Below, in pieces: positions 7,753 through 13,717 of a DNA stretch of 64,000 bases. Source of the DNA: Escherichia phage vB_EcoM_EC001; sequence record MN445185.1; one strand, given 5' to 3'. The notes under the pieces were generated by a model, which worked only from the letters and a program-made list of their open reading frames with translations, was not told where the DNA came from and did not search any database. The first letter of the stretch is position 1, and the number at the start of each line of letters is the position of its first letter. The position numbers and the translations under genes are program-made.

Positions 7753-8277
7753 ATGCAAATTCGTTTTAGTCCACCGTGGGAAGTTCAATCTAACATAGAT
7801 AAAGGGGCTGGCGTTAAAAAGTTGGAGGAACTCCAAGCAAGCTTCTTTAACTGGTTATATGACTGCTCGTCGGGCTTTAGTTCCATCATACTGCCAGTGA
7901 GTGACCCTATTTCGATTTATAAATCGATTATGGCACCACCTGCACTTCCGACTCTTTATTATGACCAGGTCTTAAACCTGGTTGAGAAAGGTACGAATGA
8001 AACCCTTGCTGATTTATATGGGGAATCATTCGACGGTCGTTTACGTTGGGTGTTCTCACAACGTGGCGATGTTGTTGTGGCGTCTTTTGCAGAAGCTAAA
8101 TCCGGACCGGGTTTTTCTTTAAGTGAAGACCACGCTGCGAAAAAGATGTTCTGCGCAGAACTTTTTAAATATATGCGTCCCAAGACTCGTGTCGTGGATG
8201 ATACGTTCAGTACGTCGACGCAGTTTGCTGCGCACGAAGTGCTGACGCAGTTGTACGCATGTCATTTATCTAAATAA
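7753..8277 (+). CDS. hypothetical protein immediately upstream of the abundant structural gene
   Basis: ATG at 7753 in frame with ORF-track 7699 ORF; only 14 bp from the divergent minus-strand start. Confidence 0.45.
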   Translation: MQIRFSPPWEVQSNIDKGAGVKKLEELQASFFNWLYDCSSGFSSIILPVSDPISIYKSIMAPPALPTLYYDQVLNLVEKGTNETLADLYGESFDGRLRWVFSQRGDVVVASFAEAKSGPGFSLSEDHAAKKMFCAELFKYMRPKTRVVDDTFSTSTQFAAHEVLTQLYACHLSK

Positions 8278-8289
8278 GGTAAACTTGAA

Positions 8290-10590
8290 ATGAAAGATAC
8301 CCGTATCGCTAGTCTGGACCAGCTGGTTCAGCAGGGCAATGCTCTGGTCGCTGCTGCCAAGGCAGGCTCTTCCGCTAATGACGTATGGCAAACCGTAGCC
8401 GTTGGCGAATCTGTACGTAAAAATGCTGCCGGCTTCACCAACCTGCGTGACACTGCTCAGCAGCACTACGAAGCTGTAAACCCTGGCAAAACCATGAGCC
8501 ACGCTGCTCAGGTTGCTTCTGCGATGATTCTGGCTGCTGCCGGTCACGAAGACGACTTCATGACCCGTGTTGCTGCCGAGAGCGCGAAGCCGGAATACGC
8601 CAGCTACATGCCGATCGCTATTTCTGGTGCAGCATCTCTGGCTGCTGACTACGGTAAAACTCCGCTGGTCGCAACTGAATACTACACCAACAAAGACCTG
8701 GACAAAAACCTGGGTCTGACCTGGACGCTGAACGTGCGTGCTCTGGAAACTCAATCCAAGTTTGCAGAAACCCTGTTCCCGACCATCACTGTGGACACCA
8801 ACGACGTCGGCATCACCGTTCGTACCAAAGTTACTACTGTATCTCGTGGTATCCTGAACGCCCTGCTGACCAAAGACGTGGTTGAAGACAACCGTCAGCC
8901 GCTGCATAACGCGCTGTCTAACCACAAAGTCCTGCAGGACGATGCTATCCGTATCGTACCTTACGTGATGGAAACCGGTGAGAACGCGAAGTTCTTCGTA
9001 TCCGAAGACATCATCGAAAACGAAAACGTTCAGCTGGGTCGTGTGCCGGCGTATCCGACCAACTACCTGAGCTTCTCTGAACGTCGTCTGAACCTGTTCC
9101 AGCTGTCTGCCCATCCGGGTATCGTGCAGGAAGGTTACGATGAAACCGACGAAATCGCACCGGGTGCAGCGCTGGGTAGCCTGCTGCTGTCTGTGCGTAA
9201 GCCGACTGAAGAAGCGAAAGATGGCGCGCTGATCAAACTGAACGTACGCGACATGCAGTTCGCTACCTTCCAGCGTCCTCCTGAAGGTGATGGCCGTGAG
9301 CTGGTCCTGCAGTTCCGTCGCACTGTGTTCTCCCTGAACGCCAAGTCTCTGGACTGGAAAGGTGCTGAAATCCCGGCACTGGCCGCTCTGGCACAGAACG
9401 ATTACACCATTCGTTATTCCATGAACATCAGCATGTCTCTGTTCACCAACGGTCAGTTCTCTGGTCGTGTTGACGTGACTGCACCGTCTCTGGAAATCGA
9501 AGGTCTGTACGACGCAACTGGTACTGCTGTTGATATCGAAAGCGGCACCGGTAAAGTTATCATCGACAACCTGAAACTGGAGCTGCTGGGCTGGCGCTTC
9601 GACGGTACTCGTACCAACGAGAACCGGAGAACCCAGGGCCTTCTGCTCGACCCGATTTGGGAACAAGAGAACTACAAACTGCAGTACGGTTCTCCGATCA
9701 TGACCAAATCTCCGGTTGGCGTTGAATACGACGACACCGAACGTCTGGACGACCTCGTTTCTGCGGTTAACATCCGTAACGAAATGCTGGCTATCACTCA
9801 GACTCTGTCTTACACCGAAGCGGTTAAGAACGCAGCTGCGTCCATGATCACTCCGTGGGACAAACCTGCTATCCGCGGCCTGGGCCGTCACTGGGTTGCT
9901 CCGTGGTACAGCGAAAGCGACTACGAAGTGGACAAAGTGATCCAGTCTCTGGATACCAAAGATGCGCTCATCAACGCCCGTCAGGGTCTGGTACAGCGTA
10001 TCGGCGACCAGGTAACTCGTGCTATCCAGGATTCTCGTTTCATGCCGGCTCTGCGCCTGCTGACTGCGGACCCGAACGCACTGCCGAAAGTTGTTATCGC
10101 AACTGACGAACCGACTGCTGCAATGCTGCTGCTGGTTCAGGGTGACCAGCGTCTGCTGGGCGATCGCTACGAGTACGAAGTTATCACCACCAACGATGAC
10201 CGCTGGCGTGTGAAGAACGAAGCTGACGGCAGCTGGACTCGCCGCCTGCAGTGGGTTCTGAAAGTTCCAACCGCTGATGACGGTTCTTACTGTGTTCTGA
10301 ACTGGGGTAACCACTTCTGGTCTCCGATCATGGTAACCAACATCAACATCCAGCGTAACGGCGCTACCAGCAAAGAGCTGGCAGTACAGCCTCGTAACGC
10401 GCACATCTGCCACTGCCCGATCACTGGTCTGATCTGGATTAAAGGTATCACCAAGTTCGTGGAAGAGAAACTGGCGTTCAACGTCACTACTACTTCCAAC
10501 GGTACTGGCGGTACTAATGGCGGTAATGCGGGTGATGTTGGCGGCGGCGCTACCCAGCCAGGTACTGGCGGTGAAGGCGCTGGCGGCTAA
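8290..10590 (+). CDS. abundant virion structural protein, 766 aa; major capsid protein candidate (tail sheath not excluded)
   Basis: extreme bias to enterobacterial optimal codons (CTG, CGT, GGT, ACC, AAA); size in range of jumbo-phage capsid proteins; Gly-rich C-terminal tail; strong terminator after. Confidence 0.5.
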   Translation: MKDTRIASLDQLVQQGNALVAAAKAGSSANDVWQTVAVGESVRKNAAGFTNLRDTAQQHYEAVNPGKTMSHAAQVASAMILAAAGHEDDFMTRVAAESAKPEYASYMPIAISGAASLAADYGKTPLVATEYYTNKDLDKNLGLTWTLNVRALETQSKFAETLFPTITVDTNDVGITVRTKVTTVSRGILNALLTKDVVEDNRQPLHNALSNHKVLQDDAIRIVPYVMETGENAKFFVSEDIIENENVQLGRVPAYPTNYLSFSERRLNLFQLSAHPGIVQEGYDETDEIAPGAALGSLLLSVRKPTEEAKDGALIKLNVRDMQFATFQRPPEGDGRELVLQFRRTVFSLNAKSLDWKGAEIPALAALAQNDYTIRYSMNISMSLFTNGQFSGRVDVTAPSLEIEGLYDATGTAVDIESGTGKVIIDNLKLELLGWRFDGTRTNENRRTQGLLLDPIWEQENYKLQYGSPIMTKSPVGVEYDDTERLDDLVSAVNIRNEMLAITQTLSYTEAVKNAAASMITPWDKPAIRGLGRHWVAPWYSESDYEVDKVIQSLDTKDALINARQGLVQRIGDQVTRAIQDSRFMPALRLLTADPNALPKVVIATDEPTAAMLLLVQGDQRLLGDRYEYEVITTNDDRWRVKNEADGSWTRRLQWVLKVPTADDGSYCVLNWGNHFWSPIMVTNINIQRNGATSKELAVQPRNAHICHCPITGLIWIKGITKFVEEKLAFNVTTTSNGTGGTNGGNAGDVGGGATQPGTGGEGAGG

Positions 10591-10620
10591 TAATCCGTAA
10601 GGATTACGTTGCCTAAGATT

Positions 10621-10659
10621 AGCTTACTCCCTTCGGGGAGTAAGCTTTTTCTTTTTTTC
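10621..10659 (+). terminator. rho-independent terminator (UUCG loop)
   Basis: AGCTTACTCCC-TTCG-GGGAGTAAGCT then T-run. Confidence 0.85.
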
Positions 10660-10666
10660 TAAAAAT

Positions 10667-10694
10667 TTATAGATAGATATTATCTTAGGGAGAG
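10667..10694 (+). promoter_or_regulatory. conserved promoter-like element, variant B (ATAGATAGATATTATCTTAGGGAGA)
   Basis: shares core with 31176 copy; directly follows terminator. Confidence 0.5.
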
Positions 10695-10725
10695 AGTCAT
10701 TCGGTTTTAACTTAAGGAGACAGTA

Positions 10726-10809
10726 ATGGAAGTCAATTTAGAGAGATCAAGACTAGTTGCACCGATGTTTGATGGGCGCGGTTTTATGGCGAACGGTCAC
10801 CACGTTTGA
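10726..10809 (+). CDS. possible 27-aa micro-protein
   Basis: AAGGAGA ribosome-binding site 7 nt upstream of ATG; lies between two promoter-like copies. Confidence 0.25.
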   Translation: MEVNLERSRLVAPMFDGRGFMANGHHV

Positions 10810-10865
10810 TACCCTAAAGTTTTTTACGTTAAGGGCACTGGGTATGAACCCGTGCCCAAAGTAAT

Positions 10866-10890
10866 CTGAGATAGATATTATCTACGTGAA
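10866..10890 (+). promoter_or_regulatory. conserved promoter-like element, variant B
   Basis: CTGAGATAGATATTATCTACGTGAA. Confidence 0.45.
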
Positions 10891-10922
10891 TAATTCTTTT
10901 GGTATTATTACTGGGATGTTCA

Positions 10923-11927
10923 ATGAACCGTTATGATTTAGACGTTCAGCCAACGCTAACCCAGCGGCCCATGCACCGTGGTGCCGTGTCGAAGACTATC
11001 ACGTACGAAAATAATACCGGGTTTCCCATATACGTCACTGAACTCAGTGGCGGGCATTTTGTTTTAGCCCCGTCGTCCACCACAGCGGCGGAATTTGGGA
11101 TTGTGATTTACGTGACCTATACGGTGTTTGCGAACGGTGCTAACCTATCTGGTTTGCGCGACGCACATTCGCCAAAGCAGTATGCGCAGATATGTAAGGA
11201 ATTAACTACGAACGGCGAAACAACGCTGATGTATGTAGTTGATGATATCGGAGCGTTAATGCGAGGCGACTTGGTGGTGTTGAAGAAGCTAGGAATGGCT
11301 TTCTCTACCCAACCAGTAAAACTCGATTCTGAGGTTATTGGTAAGCCAGGAGGGGATCGTAAAGAATTTGCCTTGGGCGTGGTAGTTGTACAGAAGTACG
11401 AAGACCCAGCACCTTTAAAGTGGCTGAGGTTCTATACAACGATGTTGGAAGTCGAACCGATTCGATCGAAGTATTACGACGAGGGTATATACATGGTAAT
11501 CGGTGGTGCGGAGTGCGTCGAAGGGGGTAAGATGATAATGTACTCTTTCGATGACCCGATGTCCCCGTTCCGGGCGTTTGCATCTGAAGATGAAGCGAGG
11601 CGTTATCGGTGGCTCGATAACATTCCAGAGTTGCGAGATGTTCGTGCGAAGCTGGAAGCCACGTATCAGGCCAAGTTGCAAGATCTCGATGAGAAAAAGA
11701 ATCGGCAAGACCTCGATTATCGTACACAACTTAATAATCTGGCGCTAGAGAAGGAGAGGATTAACACCCTTAACACAATCCAGACGAATGAGCTTAAGTT
11801 GCGTTCCGATGTTCGTAAAGACCAATACGAGTCCCGAGCTTATCAGCGAAAAGATAGCTCGGAGTTCTTGAAATCCATTCCCGCGTATTTGGCTGCAGGG
11901 GTAGCACTCGTTGGGATGATTCTCTGA
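10923..11927 (+). CDS. hypothetical protein with coiled-coil region and C-terminal hydrophobic anchor
   Basis: ORF-track ORF begins at TTG 10899; first ATG at 10923; C-terminus IPAYLAAGVALVGMIL. Confidence 0.55.
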   Translation: MNRYDLDVQPTLTQRPMHRGAVSKTITYENNTGFPIYVTELSGGHFVLAPSSTTAAEFGIVIYVTYTVFANGANLSGLRDAHSPKQYAQICKELTTNGETTLMYVVDDIGALMRGDLVVLKKLGMAFSTQPVKLDSEVIGKPGGDRKEFALGVVVVQKYEDPAPLKWLRFYTTMLEVEPIRSKYYDEGIYMVIGGAECVEGGKMIMYSFDDPMSPFRAFASEDEARRYRWLDNIPELRDVRAKLEATYQAKLQDLDEKKNRQDLDYRTQLNNLALEKERINTLNTIQTNELKLRSDVRKDQYESRAYQRKDSSEFLKSIPAYLAAGVALVGMIL

Positions 11928-11938
11928 GGGAGGCCGGT

Positions 11939-13717
11939 GTGTTTAAAGATGCGATTAGGAAGATTAAAGAGGCAGGCGAAATAGTGCCTTTTAATCGTGC
12001 AATTGCAGAAGGAGTTGGGTACACACAAGCTAAAGACGGGATACATGATCGTGTGGCAACCATTCTACGTCGTGAGTTGACGTATGATGAAATCGATAAC
12101 CCGAAATTACCAGAAGGGTTAACGGTATTAGGTTGTCGCCAAATGTCGCCGTTTGAAGCTTTTATCTTTAAGTTATCGAAGTCGGATAACAATTCACGAA
12201 ATAATCGTGGCCGGTCAATTATTAACATCTCATCCACTGATACGTATATGGTAATGGCCTCGTTCCGAGTTCCAGGCGATCCTCGCCCGGTGCAACGACC
12301 AATGAGCTTACCATTTATTCGTCGTGGCGGCTTAATGAACTACTACGGTACAACGTACCACGTAGCACCTGTAATCCACCAACCTGGTATTTGTCGTGAG
12401 CACGGTGGTATCTTTATTAACTTTGACTTCACCCGCAAGGTGTCTATCAAGTTCTGTAAGAAACCAACGAAGATTCTGGTGAATGGTCGCCCTGAGCAGC
12501 TGTTCTTGCCAGGTACATCGAATCTGTTTGTCTCAACCGGACAGATTGGACACGACACCGATGAGAAGCCGTTGATGTATTGGCTCTTCGGGCGCTACGG
12601 CTTTAAACAAGCTGTGAAGCGTTATGCGGGTGTTGATGTGGCGATTTGGCCAGCGATTAAAGTACGTGATGTGGACTTAACGAAGTATGTGGTGATTCAG
12701 TCCGGTGAGCCACAACTCGCGAAGACCATCCAGTACGTACTGTTGGTTAAACGTGAAGATATGCCTAACACCGATGCAGGGCGTTGGGATCAGAATGAAC
12801 ATCTGTTGCTGGTAGCGACTGCCGCATTCTTCAAAGCAGCGCACTACTACGCAGGTAAACAGAACAGTAAGAACGGTCGTGCACCAACACTGCCGGGGCT
12901 GTTTACACAGATTAACGAAATGGCAATGGACGAAGATATTGCGAACCTCAATTCTGCAGCCTCCTGGCGCGAAGTGTTGGGTCGTAGTATTCGCGGACTG
13001 AAGCCTTCGGATATCGAACTGAGTCGCAGTATGGACAGCCACTTCCAGGAATGTGAACGCTATGTCAACAGCACCTTCCGTGGTGAGCTGATGGCAAACG
13101 ATCCGTCCATCCCTGATGATTTGGATATGTTTGATTTCCTCTGGTACACCACGCAGCTGATGGTGCGTACTCGTCTTACCAAACAAGATGATATTCCGTC
13201 TATGTACGGAAAACGTCTCACGGTAACCGATTACTTACTGTTGGGCCAACGTGGCTTTACCACAACGATCTCGAAAATACGTTGGAAGCTGGGGCAGTTG
13301 GAACATCGGACTCCAGAGACAGCGGCGAAGTCTATTCGAGACGCACTGAACAAACAGATCGTGCTCAATCTGGTGATGCGCACCATTACGAGCAACGGCG
13401 GTATCAGTTTCTTCAATGCCTCTACAGAATCAATGGTATTGGCAGTGTCTACGCACGCCATCGGTCAAACCGAAACCGATGCTAAGCGTTCGAAGAAAGG
13501 AGGCAAGACCGTTAACTTGAACGACCGTACTAAGCACGCATCTGCGTCGCATCTGGAATGTGGTAACGTCTACTATATTCCTAAGTCGGCACCGTTTAAG
13601 GCAAACATCCTCAACCCGTACATGAAGACCAACCCAAGTTTGGTAATGATGCGGAACCCTAAACTGGACCCGTACATCAGACCGACCGAAGAAGACATTG
13701 CTAAAATCGGCCGCTAA
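11939..13717 (+). CDS. hypothetical protein (592 aa), likely virion or morphogenesis protein
   Basis: GTG start preceded by GGGAGG; lies between capsid-like and portal-like genes. Confidence 0.6.
   Translation: MFKDAIRKIKEAGEIVPFNRAIAEGVGYTQAKDGIHDRVATILRRELTYDEIDNPKLPEGLTVLGCRQMSPFEAFIFKLSKSDNNSRNNRGRSIINISSTDTYMVMASFRVPGDPRPVQRPMSLPFIRRGGLMNYYGTTYHVAPVIHQPGICREHGGIFINFDFTRKVSIKFCKKPTKILVNGRPEQLFLPGTSNLFVSTGQIGHDTDEKPLMYWLFGRYGFKQAVKRYAGVDVAIWPAIKVRDVDLTKYVVIQSGEPQLAKTIQYVLLVKREDMPNTDAGRWDQNEHLLLVATAAFFKAAHYYAGKQNSKNGRAPTLPGLFTQINEMAMDEDIANLNSAASWREVLGRSIRGLKPSDIELSRSMDSHFQECERYVNSTFRGELMANDPSIPDDLDMFDFLWYTTQLMVRTRLTKQDDIPSMYGKRLTVTDYLLLGQRGFTTTISKIRWKLGQLEHRTPETAAKSIRDALNKQIVLNLVMRTITSNGGISFFNASTESMVLAVSTHAIGQTETDAKRSKKGGKTVNLNDRTKHASASHLECGNVYYIPKSAPFKANILNPYMKTNPSLVMMRNPKLDPYIRPTEEDIAKIGR

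What the first reader, a model, noticed from the sequence alone, without database searches (positions are those of the whole stretch)
10660..10922. Two promoter-like copies and a micro-ORF in the 300-bp gap after the abundant structural gene
After the terminator of the 766-aa gene there are two variant-B elements (10667, 10866) separated by a 27-codon ORF with a strong AAGGAGA ribosome-binding site (10726-10809) and a hairpin GGGCAC...GTGCCC (10834-10857) without a T-run. Tandem promoters with an intervening structured element could give differential or attenuated expression of the downstream morphogenesis genes.
Basis: seen in the sequence. Interest (0 to 1): 0.3.

Follow-up and report, generated by a model that had tools for sequence, protein, structure and literature searches.

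The report
Deleted-gene scar between two phage promoters
The two promoter copies are real early promoters of a giant Salmonella phage, but they lie close together only because the 232-codon gene between them was deleted, leaving a 27-codon stub, so this is an ordinary gene-loss scar and not a regulatory device.

Summary
The window is a SPN3US-like Salmonella jumbo phage (Seoulvirus). The 766-aa gene is the major capsid protein gp75.

The two 'variant-B' elements share 15 exact bases (AGATAGATATTATCT). They belong to about 21 same-strand intergenic sites in SPN3US that match the published early (virion RNA polymerase) promoter consensus of phiKZ-like phages.

The 27-codon ORF is not a leader peptide. 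It is the frameshifted stub of a 232-aa early gene of unknown function (phrog_15414). That gene is intact at this position in most Seoulvirus genomes and in Erwinia jumbo phages. SPN3US, Lh1B and this window share a 607-bp internal deletion. JN03 and SaP7 carry a different, independent deletion.

The first promoter is therefore orphaned. The second serves gp76, gp77 (a non-virion RNA polymerase subunit, homologue of phiKZ gp123) and gp78, which are not morphogenesis genes.

The hairpin is the lost gene's conserved 3' hairpin. It overlies a third element, TTAC-N15-TATG, a second enriched promoter-like class resembling phiKZ middle/late promoters and conserved across three genera.

Verdict: observation confirmed, attenuation interpretation not supported, low interest.

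The parts
8290..10590 (+). Major capsid protein gene (SPN3US gp75), the '766-aa abundant structural gene'
   Evidence: 99.2% identical to SPN3US, where it is annotated as major head protein; gp75 is the major capsid protein in PMC5694885.
10621..10656 (+). Intrinsic terminator of the capsid gene (11-bp stem, TTCG loop, T-run)
   Evidence: The same module is present in all relatives examined.
10661..10692 (+). P1: early (virion RNA polymerase type) promoter-like element. Core GATAGATATTATCT at 10672-10685. Start site inferred at about 10689-10691. Now orphaned.
   Evidence: Exact core. Highest score in the genome-wide PWM scan, although the matrix was built from these same sites. Matches the OBP/N1M2 consensus TTTCARRYAKATATTATYWAAGTG. 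100% conserved in relatives upstream of the intact 232-aa gene.
10714..10720 (+). Shine-Dalgarno sequence AAGGAGA of the lost gene
   Evidence: identical in relatives that carry the intact gene.
10726..10809 (+). 27-codon ORF: frameshifted stub of a 232-aa early gene (phrog_15414). The first 75 nt are the original 5' end and the deletion junction lies at about 10798-10803.
   Evidence: (tblastn E 2.8e-7).
10801..10817 (+). Remnant of the 3' end of the lost gene (ACGTTTGATACCCTAA; original stop codon TAA at 10815-10817, now out of frame)
   Evidence: Identical to the 3' end of the intact allele on Logan contig L017; aligned.
10820..10846 (+). Pm: middle/late-type promoter-like element. T-run plus TTAC at 10824-10827, a 15-nt spacer, and TATG at 10843-10846. 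Start site inferred at G 10846.
   Evidence: TTAC-N15-TATG occurs 9 times on the + strand of the window against 2.1 expected. In SPN3US there are 21 + strand hits at spacing 15 against 1-6 at other spacings, and 16 of all 24 hits on both strands are intergenic. TTAC and TATG are invariant at fixed spacing in all 8 relatives examined, across 3 genera, while the spacer varies.
10833..10857 (+). GC-rich hairpin (6+4 bp, 1-nt bulge, ATGA loop) without a U-tract. It is the 3' hairpin of the lost gene and has TATG at its apex. Optional outer pairs join 10824-10827 to 10861-10864.
   Evidence: -18.1 to -18.6 kcal/mol, z about -4.3. Hairpins of different sequence occupy the same spot in 6 of 7 lineages.
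10858..10890 (+). P2: early promoter-like element of the gp76-gp77-gp78 unit. Core at 10870-10883. Start site inferred at about 10887-10889.
   Evidence: Core GATAGATATTATC invariant in all 8 relatives examined, across 3 genera.
10923..11927 (+). gp76, hypothetical protein (phrog_7286)
11939..13717 (+). gp77, non-virion RNA polymerase beta N-terminal fragment (homologue of phiKZ gp123)
   Evidence: PDB 7OGP chain E, E 3e-20; stated in PMC5105663.

Best explanation
The 330-bp gap is the scar of a 607-bp internal deletion in an accessory early gene.

The ancestral layout runs: capsid gene, intrinsic terminator, early promoter P1, ribosome-binding site, a 232-aa gene, then a 3' hairpin interleaved with a TTAC-N15-TATG (middle/late-type) promoter, then early promoter P2, then gp76, gp77 (a non-virion RNA polymerase subunit) and gp78. 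It is still intact in most relatives.

In the lineage of SPN3US, Lh1B and this window, the deletion removed all but 92 nt of the 699-nt gene. The first 25 codons now join out of frame to the last 17 or so nucleotides, giving a 27-codon ORF that ends at a new TGA.

Shown: the homology, the synteny, the deletion, the motif enrichment and the motif conservation.

Inferred: P1 and P2 are read by the injected virion RNA polymerase early in infection. P1 now makes only a roughly 170-nt RNA ending at the hairpin (or reads through into gp76), and this RNA is probably translated into a functionless peptide. Pm is read later by the non-virion polymerase, so that the polymerase-subunit operon is expressed in two phases, as reported for phiKZ gene 54.
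For: Identity of the phage and genes.

Intact 232-aa gene at the same ATG in SPLA3. tblastn finds it after the capsid gene in 50 records, down to 23-46% identity in Erwinia Machinavirus phages.

Alignment A1 shows the deletion in the window, SPN3US and Lh1B, and a different deletion in JN03 and SaP7 that leaves a 65-aa stub derived from the Proteus-phage-7-type allele.

The 3' remnant ACGTTTGATACCCTAA equals the 3' end of an intact allele.

The one difference between SPN3US and the window within the stub is F20S, at a residue invariant in the family. This fits relaxed constraint.

Promoter class: 7 hits against 0.31 expected. About 21 sites, all on the + strand, with consensus AaaaaaTttcAGATAgATaTTAtCTnagtGA. 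This equals the published OBP/N1M2 early-promoter consensus and is related to phiKZ TATATTAC.

The same motif precedes all three tested operons that carry non-virion polymerase subunits, namely the homologues of phiKZ gp55, gp71 and gp123. This is what is expected of early genes.

Module conservation across Seoulvirus, Machinavirus and Erskinevirus.

TTAC-N15-TATG enrichment. A dual early plus middle promoter is reported for phiKZ gene 54.
Against: No transcript or start-site data exist for any Seoulvirus in the libraries searched. Promoter activity, timing and start sites are therefore inferred by analogy.

The exact progenitor allele of the stub was not found. The closest is 64/75 nt identical, so the junction and any microhomology cannot be fixed to the base.

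Lh1B and the window differ at 4 of 12 bases just 3' of the junction. This needs later recombination, or errors in the N-rich Lh1B record.

The hairpin lacks a U-tract, so its role as a terminator is not established.
Confidence: 0.87

Rival explanations
1. This is a designed tandem-promoter and attenuator unit. Translation of the 27-codon leader ORF controls formation of the hairpin and so tunes read-through from P1 into the downstream genes.
For: P1, a strong ribosome-binding site, a short ORF and a stable hairpin lie in series. Read-through from P1 into gp76 is physically possible because the hairpin has no U-tract.
Against: The ORF is 232 codons long in most relatives and 65 codons in JN03 and SaP7, so the short form is not conserved. 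There is no alternative pairing and no U-tract. P2 and Pm lie at or downstream of the hairpin and would bypass any attenuation. The ORF stop is 24 nt upstream of the hairpin. The SPN3US reference has a substitution at a family-invariant residue.
Confidence: 0.04
2. The 232-aa gene is a recent insertion (a mobile cassette) in the relatives, and the SPN3US arrangement with a short ORF is ancestral.
For: The slot is plastic, holding 0, 1, 2 or 3 genes in different phages. Alleles are swapped between otherwise 99% identical genomes.
Against: The gene family occupies the slot in three genera, with divergence matching that of the neighbouring genes. The stub keeps both the first 25 codons and the last 16 or so nucleotides of the gene, joined out of frame. 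Two different truncations exist. No endonuclease or transposase domain was found.
Confidence: 0.03
3. The repeated AGATA-N5-TATCT element is an operator for a dimeric phage or host DNA-binding protein, or a host sigma-70 promoter, and is not a virion RNA polymerase promoter.
For: The variant-B core has dyad symmetry (AGATA/TATCT) and contains a -10-like TATTAT.
Against: The variant-A sites (GATATATATTACCT) belong to the same family and lack the symmetry. The strict orientation (all + strand, co-directional with the genes) and the fixed distance of about 36-45 nt to start codons fit a promoter. The sigma-70 scan gives chance-level hits and no -35 at proper spacing. phiKZ-like phages transcribe independently of the host polymerase.
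Confidence: 0.05
4. The hairpin is part of the promoter itself. The TTAC-N15-TATG promoter would be recognised in an extruded hairpin form, as with N4 virion polymerase promoters, with TATG presented in the loop.
For: TATG sits in or next to the apical loop. TTAC sits at the base of a hairpin whose sequence differs while its position is kept in 6 of 7 lineages. A second case lies at SPN3US 144280(-). phiKZ late-promoter specificity is unexplained by sequence alone.
Against: Only 2 of 16 intergenic TTAC-N15-TATG sites in SPN3US have a significant hairpin. Both lie directly after a stop codon, which fits a 3'-end element of the upstream gene.
Confidence: 0.08

Closest known systems
Early (virion RNA polymerase) promoters of phiKZ-like jumbo phages: phiKZ TATATTAC, OBP BSHAWWWWWTTTYARRYAKATATTATYWWADTG, N1M2, 201phi2-1
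   Same: The core GATAGATATTATC fits RRYAKATATTATY exactly. The upstream A/T run plus TTTCA and the downstream a-GTG-A also match. Sites are intergenic, co-oriented with genes, and precede non-virion polymerase subunit genes.
   Different: No start site or timing has been measured for any Seoulvirus. Two sub-variants coexist: GATAGATATTATCT and GATATATATTACCT.
Truncated pseudogene (deletion remnant) in a plastic accessory-gene slot of a phage genome
   Same: The original promoter, ribosome-binding site, first 25 codons and last 16 or so nucleotides are retained. The join is out of frame. An independent second deletion exists in a sister lineage. Alleles are exchanged between near-identical genomes.
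   Different: Nothing unusual. The function of the lost gene (phrog_15414) is unknown: no Pfam, PADLOC, PDB or fold match was found.
phiKZ middle promoters (TACT centred about -22, preceded by an A-rich run) and late promoters (T-3 A T G+1), read by the non-virion RNA polymerase
   Same: A bipartite motif with TAC about 20 nt upstream of a TATG, preceded by an A/T run. It shows strong spacing, strand and intergenic bias, and it also precedes a tRNA. It is paired with an early promoter as at phiKZ gene 54.
   Different: Here both elements occur in one motif, with a T-rich rather than A-rich run. The class is unverified experimentally. At this locus it is embedded in a hairpin.
Rho-independent (intrinsic) terminator
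   Same: A stable GC-rich stem-loop immediately after a stop codon.
   Different: There is no U-tract after the stem; the T-run lies upstream. The terminator scan does not call it.
Leader-peptide transcription attenuators (trp or pheS type)
   Same: A promoter, a short ORF with a good ribosome-binding site, and a hairpin lie in series.
   Different: The short ORF is not conserved, there are no alternative structures, there is no U-tract, and promoters lie downstream of the hairpin.

Membership tests
phiKZ-like jumbo-phage early (vRNAP) promoter | Highly conserved AT-rich core of about 10 nt near -10 that matches the family consensus (RRYAKATATTATY / TATATTAC) | tested here: met
   Both copies are GATAGATATTATC. 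The consensus is taken from Table 2 of PMC7058600.
phiKZ-like jumbo-phage early (vRNAP) promoter | T-rich or A/T-rich element upstream of about -19 | tested here: met
   P1 has taaaaatttata and P2 has aaagtaatctga. The genome-wide consensus is AaaaaaTttcA. phiKZ is described this way in PMC8244752.
phiKZ-like jumbo-phage early (vRNAP) promoter | Many copies per genome, intergenic, co-oriented with the downstream genes, including non-virion polymerase subunit genes | tested here: met
   About 21 + strand sites. Sites lie upstream of the homologues of phiKZ gp55, gp71 and gp123.
phiKZ-like jumbo-phage early (vRNAP) promoter | Transcription starts about 10 nt downstream, early in infection, independently of host polymerase and of new protein synthesis | not testable with these tools
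   No Seoulvirus transcriptome was found in the library.
Deletion remnant of a phrog_15414 gene | Sequence homology of the stub to the 5' end of intact family members at the syntenic position | tested here: met
   (E 2.8e-7). Identity over the first 75 nt is 55-64 of 75 to intact alleles.
Deletion remnant of a phrog_15414 gene | 3' end of the gene retained and the reading frame disrupted | tested here: met
   ACGTTTGATACCCTAA is identical to L017. The original TAA at 10815-10817 is out of frame and a new TGA lies at 10807-10809.
Deletion remnant of a phrog_15414 gene | Intact state is ancestral (present in outgroups) | tested here: met
   Present in Machinavirus and Erskinevirus phages after the capsid gene.
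Intrinsic terminator | GC-rich stem-loop | tested here: met
   -18.1 kcal/mol, z -4.3.
Intrinsic terminator | U-tract immediately 3' of the stem | tested here: not met
   The stem is followed by AAAGTAATCT and the scan does not call it.
phiKZ-type middle/late (nvRNAP) promoter | TATG at the start site and/or a TAC-containing motif about 22 nt upstream, preceded by an A/T run | tested here: met
   TTTTTTAC at 10820-10827 and TATG at 10843-10846. The phiKZ motifs are described.
phiKZ-type middle/late (nvRNAP) promoter | Non-random recurrence with fixed spacing, and strand and intergenic bias | tested here: met
   9 hits against 2.1 expected in the window. 21 hits at spacing 15 against 1-6 at other spacings, with 16 of 24 intergenic.
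phiKZ-type middle/late (nvRNAP) promoter | Initiation by the non-virion polymerase at the G of TATG | not testable with these tools
   Needs start-site mapping or in vitro transcription.
Leader-peptide attenuator | Short leader ORF conserved among relatives | tested here: not met
   The ORF is 232 aa in most relatives, 65 aa in JN03 and SaP7, and 27 aa only in the deletion lineage.
Leader-peptide attenuator | Terminator hairpin with a U-tract lying between the only promoter and the regulated gene | tested here: not met
   There is no U-tract, and P2 and Pm lie at or after the hairpin.

The most novel reading that the evidence does not exclude
The hairpin may be more than a leftover 3' element. 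It is conserved by position, not by sequence, across three genera, with TTAC at its base and TATG in its apical loop. It could be a structure-dependent switch that couples the end of early transcription of the cassette to initiation by the non-virion polymerase. One version would have the TTAC-N15-TATG promoter presented as an extruded hairpin, as with N4 virion polymerase promoters. That could help explain how the very short phiKZ-type late-promoter consensus achieves its specificity.
Probability: 0.08. Interest if true: 0.6.

Novelty: new member of a known kind. Interest (0 to 1): 0.2.

Why it matters
There is little consequence for biology at large. The micro-ORF should be annotated as a pseudogene remnant, not as a small protein or leader peptide.

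For workers on jumbo phages the analysis gives three usable things:

- Sequence-based maps of a Seoulvirus early-promoter set (about 21 sites) and of a second, strongly enriched TTAC-N15-TATG class. A 2020 review states that middle and late promoters of these phages could not be predicted bioinformatically.
- Evidence that the slot after the capsid gene is a cassette-exchange and gene-loss hotspot bounded by conserved promoter and terminator modules.
- A natural deletion showing that the phrog_15414 gene is dispensable.

Tried and rejected
- An Rfam scan of 10500-11000 found nothing near threshold.
- The sigma-70 promoter scan gave chance-level hits.
- The function of the lost 232-aa protein could not be assigned. 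There was no Pfam, PADLOC or PDB sequence hit. The AlphaFold model was mediocre (pLDDT 67.5, pTM 0.69). Foldseek against the PDB found nothing (best E 0.14). BFVD returned only the protein's own family in Erwinia jumbo phages.
- SPN3US has no paralogue of the gene elsewhere.
- An IMG/VR scan for P1 plus flank returned only SPN3US itself, so no further environmental variants were gained.
- I tested whether a hairpin is a general feature of TTAC-N15-TATG sites. Only 2 of 16 intergenic sites have one, so this was rejected as a general rule.
- A 6-codon ORF starting at the loop ATG (MNPCPK*) is not conserved in SNUABM_4 or SNUABM_10 and has no ribosome-binding site (sequences), so it was rejected.
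- Diversifying selection on the cassette gene was rejected. dN/dS is about 0.1 with saturated dS, which indicates old alleles exchanged by recombination.
- The primary phiKZ promoter paper (Ceyssens 2014) is not held. The phiKZ middle and late motifs are therefore cited from secondary sources.

Full report
IDENTITY OF THE REGION

The window matches Salmonella jumbo phage SPN3US (Seoulvirus, phiKZ-like) at 99.2% over 8000-12000. It is collinear with Escherichia phage Lh1B. The 766-aa gene at 8290-10590 is the major capsid protein gp75.

The genes downstream of the gap are:

- gp76 (10923-11927), unknown function, phrog_7286.
- gp77 (11939-13717), annotated 'polymerase'. It matches chain E (phiKZ gp123) of the phiKZ non-virion RNA polymerase structure 7OGP at E 3e-20. 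Thomas et al. 2016 call it the N-terminal fragment of non-virion polymerase beta.
- gp78, an essential gene with a suspected regulatory role.

These are transcription genes, not morphogenesis genes.

CHECK OF THE OBSERVATION

- The capsid-gene terminator is at 10621-10656.
- Two copies of AGATAGATATTATCT are exact at 10671-10685 and 10869-10883, and the copies are 74% identical over 39 nt.
- A 27-codon ORF lies at 10726-10809, preceded by AAGGAGA at 10714-10720.
- A hairpin lies at 10833-10857 (-18.1 kcal/mol, z -4.3) with no T-run after it.
- The 14-mer with up to 2 mismatches occurs 7 times in the window against 0.31 expected.

WHAT THE REPEATED ELEMENT IS

In the complete SPN3US genome the motif defines about 21 sites. 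All are on the + strand and nearly all are intergenic, a few tens of bases upstream of start codons. Their consensus is AaaaaaTttcAGATAgATaTTAtCTnagtGA.

There are two sub-variants. GATATATATTACCT, for example at window 3845, is probably 'variant A'.

The consensus coincides with the predicted early promoters published for Pseudomonas phage OBP and Klebsiella phage N1M2 (…AWWWWWTTTCARRYAKATATTATYWAAGTG…). It is related to those of 201phi2-1 and phiKZ (TATATTAC). In phiKZ and 201phi2-1 this class has been shown experimentally to be the early class, read by the virion RNA polymerase.

The SPN3US sites also precede all three operons tested that encode non-virion polymerase subunits, namely the homologues of phiKZ gp55, gp71 and gp123. 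This fits the assignment.

A host sigma-70 promoter is not supported. 'Promoter-like' is therefore well supported by sequence and context. Activity, timing and start sites (about 10690 and about 10888) are inferred by analogy.

WHAT THE MICRO-ORF IS

In SPLA3 and many other Seoulvirus genomes the same ATG, behind the same promoter and ribosome-binding site, opens a 699-bp gene of 232 aa. tblastn finds this gene directly after the capsid gene in 50 phage records, down to 23-46% identity in Erwinia jumbo phages.

Alignment A1 shows that the window, SPN3US and Lh1B lack 607 bp of the gene. What remains is 75 nt of the 5' end and about 17 nt of the 3' end, joined out of frame. The ORF therefore stops at a new TGA (10807-10809), and the original TAA (10815-10817) is out of frame.

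The 3' remnant ACGTTTGATACCCTAA is identical to the end of an intact allele on a Logan contig. That contig's 5' end is also the closest match to the stub, at 64 of 75 nt.

JN03 and SaP7 carry a different deletion in a different allele (the Proteus-phage-7 type), which leaves a 65-aa ORF. The gene has therefore been lost at least twice.

The only difference between SPN3US and the window inside the stub is F20S, at a residue invariant in the family. This is as expected for a sequence without constraint.

The micro-ORF is thus a pseudogene remnant. It probably still gets transcribed and translated, because its promoter and ribosome-binding site are untouched, but nothing suggests it has a function.

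THE LOST GENE AND ITS SLOT

The protein family (phrog_15414) has no Pfam, PADLOC or PDB match. An AlphaFold model of moderate quality finds only its own relatives. SPN3US has no paralogue.

The slot between the capsid gene and gp76 holds 0 to 3 genes in different phages.

Between genomes whose flanks are 99-100% identical, with gp76 dS of 0.009, the alleles of this gene are only 61-73% identical in DNA. Their synonymous sites are saturated and dN/dS is about 0.1. These are old, functional alleles swapped by recombination within conserved flanks, not fast-evolving ones.

THE HAIRPIN AND A THIRD ELEMENT

The segment from the cassette's stop codon to gp76 was compared in nine phages of three genera (Seoulvirus, Machinavirus, Erskinevirus). 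The following are invariant:

- a T-run ending in TTAC;
- TATG exactly 15 nt later;
- the early-promoter core GATAGATATTATC, 23-26 nt after the TATG.

The bases between TTAC and TATG, and just beyond, differ between lineages. In 6 of 7 lineages they still fold into a significantly stable hairpin with TATG in or next to the loop.

TTAC-N15-TATG is itself a recurrent motif. The window has 9 + strand hits against 2.1 expected, and no shuffle of 100 reached 9. SPN3US has 21 + strand hits at spacing 15, against 1-6 at spacings 11-19. Of all 24 hits on both strands, 16 are intergenic, including sites upstream of a tRNA.

The motif resembles the phiKZ middle promoter (TACT centred about -22 after an A-rich run) combined with the phiKZ late element T-3 ATG+1. 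I therefore read 10820-10846 as a middle/late-type promoter for the non-virion polymerase.

On that reading the gp76-gp77-gp78 unit has a conserved dual promoter, Pm plus early P2. This parallels phiKZ gene 54, which has an early primary start and a middle secondary start.

The hairpin is not a general property of this promoter class. Only 2 of 16 intergenic sites have one, and both lie directly after a stop codon. It is therefore best explained as the 3'-end element of the upstream cassette gene, acting as a terminator or stabiliser, overlaid on the promoter spacer. It lacks a U-tract, so it is not a canonical intrinsic terminator.

- The short ORF is not conserved as a short ORF.
- The hairpin lies upstream of P2 and around the inferred Pm start, so it cannot attenuate transcripts from either.
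- There are no alternative pairings and no U-tract.
- The close spacing of P1 and P2 (198 bp) is a by-product of the deletion. In intact relatives they are about 805 bp apart.

In SPN3US, P1 most likely yields a short RNA of about 170 nt ending at the hairpin, or adds some read-through into gp76.

NOVELTY AND SCORE

The early-promoter class and deletion remnants are both known kinds, so this is a new member of each. The TTAC-N15-TATG class in Seoulvirus and its embedding in a positionally conserved hairpin are the only mildly new points.

The most novel reading not excluded is that the hairpin is mechanistically part of a promoter/terminator switch. I give that about 0.08 probability.

Overall interest is 0.2.

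Noticed in passing
window 2447, 2822, 10824, 31208, 32826, 39045, 43752, 48154, 57724 (+ strand): A second promoter-like class, TTAC-N15-TATG. The window has 9 hits against 2.1 expected. In SPN3US there are 21 + strand hits at spacing 15 against 1-6 at other spacings, and 16 of all 24 hits on both strands are intergenic. It resembles the phiKZ middle (TAC at about -22) and late (TATG) elements combined.
   Followed up: partly
window 31176/31208, 48123/48154, 32826/about 32877, 10824/10870: Early-type and TTAC-N15-TATG elements occur as close pairs, in both orders, upstream of several genes. This suggests many genes have dual early plus middle/late control.
   Followed up: partly
L007:15615-15721 (SPN3US genome, outside the window): Two early-promoter motifs lie 93 bp apart upstream of the operon that holds the phiKZ gp55 homologue (a non-virion polymerase subunit). 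I did not check whether this is a true tandem pair or another deletion scar.
   Followed up: no
window 10726-10817 and the same slot in L002, L003, L012-L015, L017-L020: The slot between the capsid gene and gp76 holds 0-3 genes. Alleles of the 232-aa gene have saturated dS and dN/dS of about 0.1, while the flanking genes are nearly identical. It is a cassette-exchange hotspot bounded by conserved promoter and terminator modules, and the paralogues share a C-terminal module of about 55 aa (phrog_15414 / phrog_19758).
   Followed up: partly
L009:44240-44285 (SPN3US 144280, - strand; outside the window): This is the only other TTAC-N15-TATG site with a strong hairpin (-20.8 kcal/mol, TATG in the loop). 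It also lies directly after a stop codon and is followed by a T-rich tail.
   Followed up: no
L010:23075-23097 (SPN3US 173075; outside the window): The ATG of this site's TATG coincides with the annotated start codon of ACQ60_gp074. The mRNA may be leaderless, or the start may be mis-annotated.
   Followed up: no
window 10884-10922 and the homologous 5'UTRs in L012-L015, L018-L020: The gp76 5'UTR carries a motif conserved across three genera (…ATTGGTWTT…CTGGG…) and has only a weak ribosome-binding site. The 5'UTRs after P1 and P2 are 74% identical over 39 nt including the promoter core.
   Followed up: no
window 9000-33000 versus OK428535.1 and NC_027402.1: The window is collinear with Lh1B at an offset of exactly 64000. 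It differs from SPN3US by several indels of about 270-680 bp between 10.9 and 48 kb. The Lh1B record has runs of N in the terminator/P1 region, so its differences there are unreliable.
   Followed up: no
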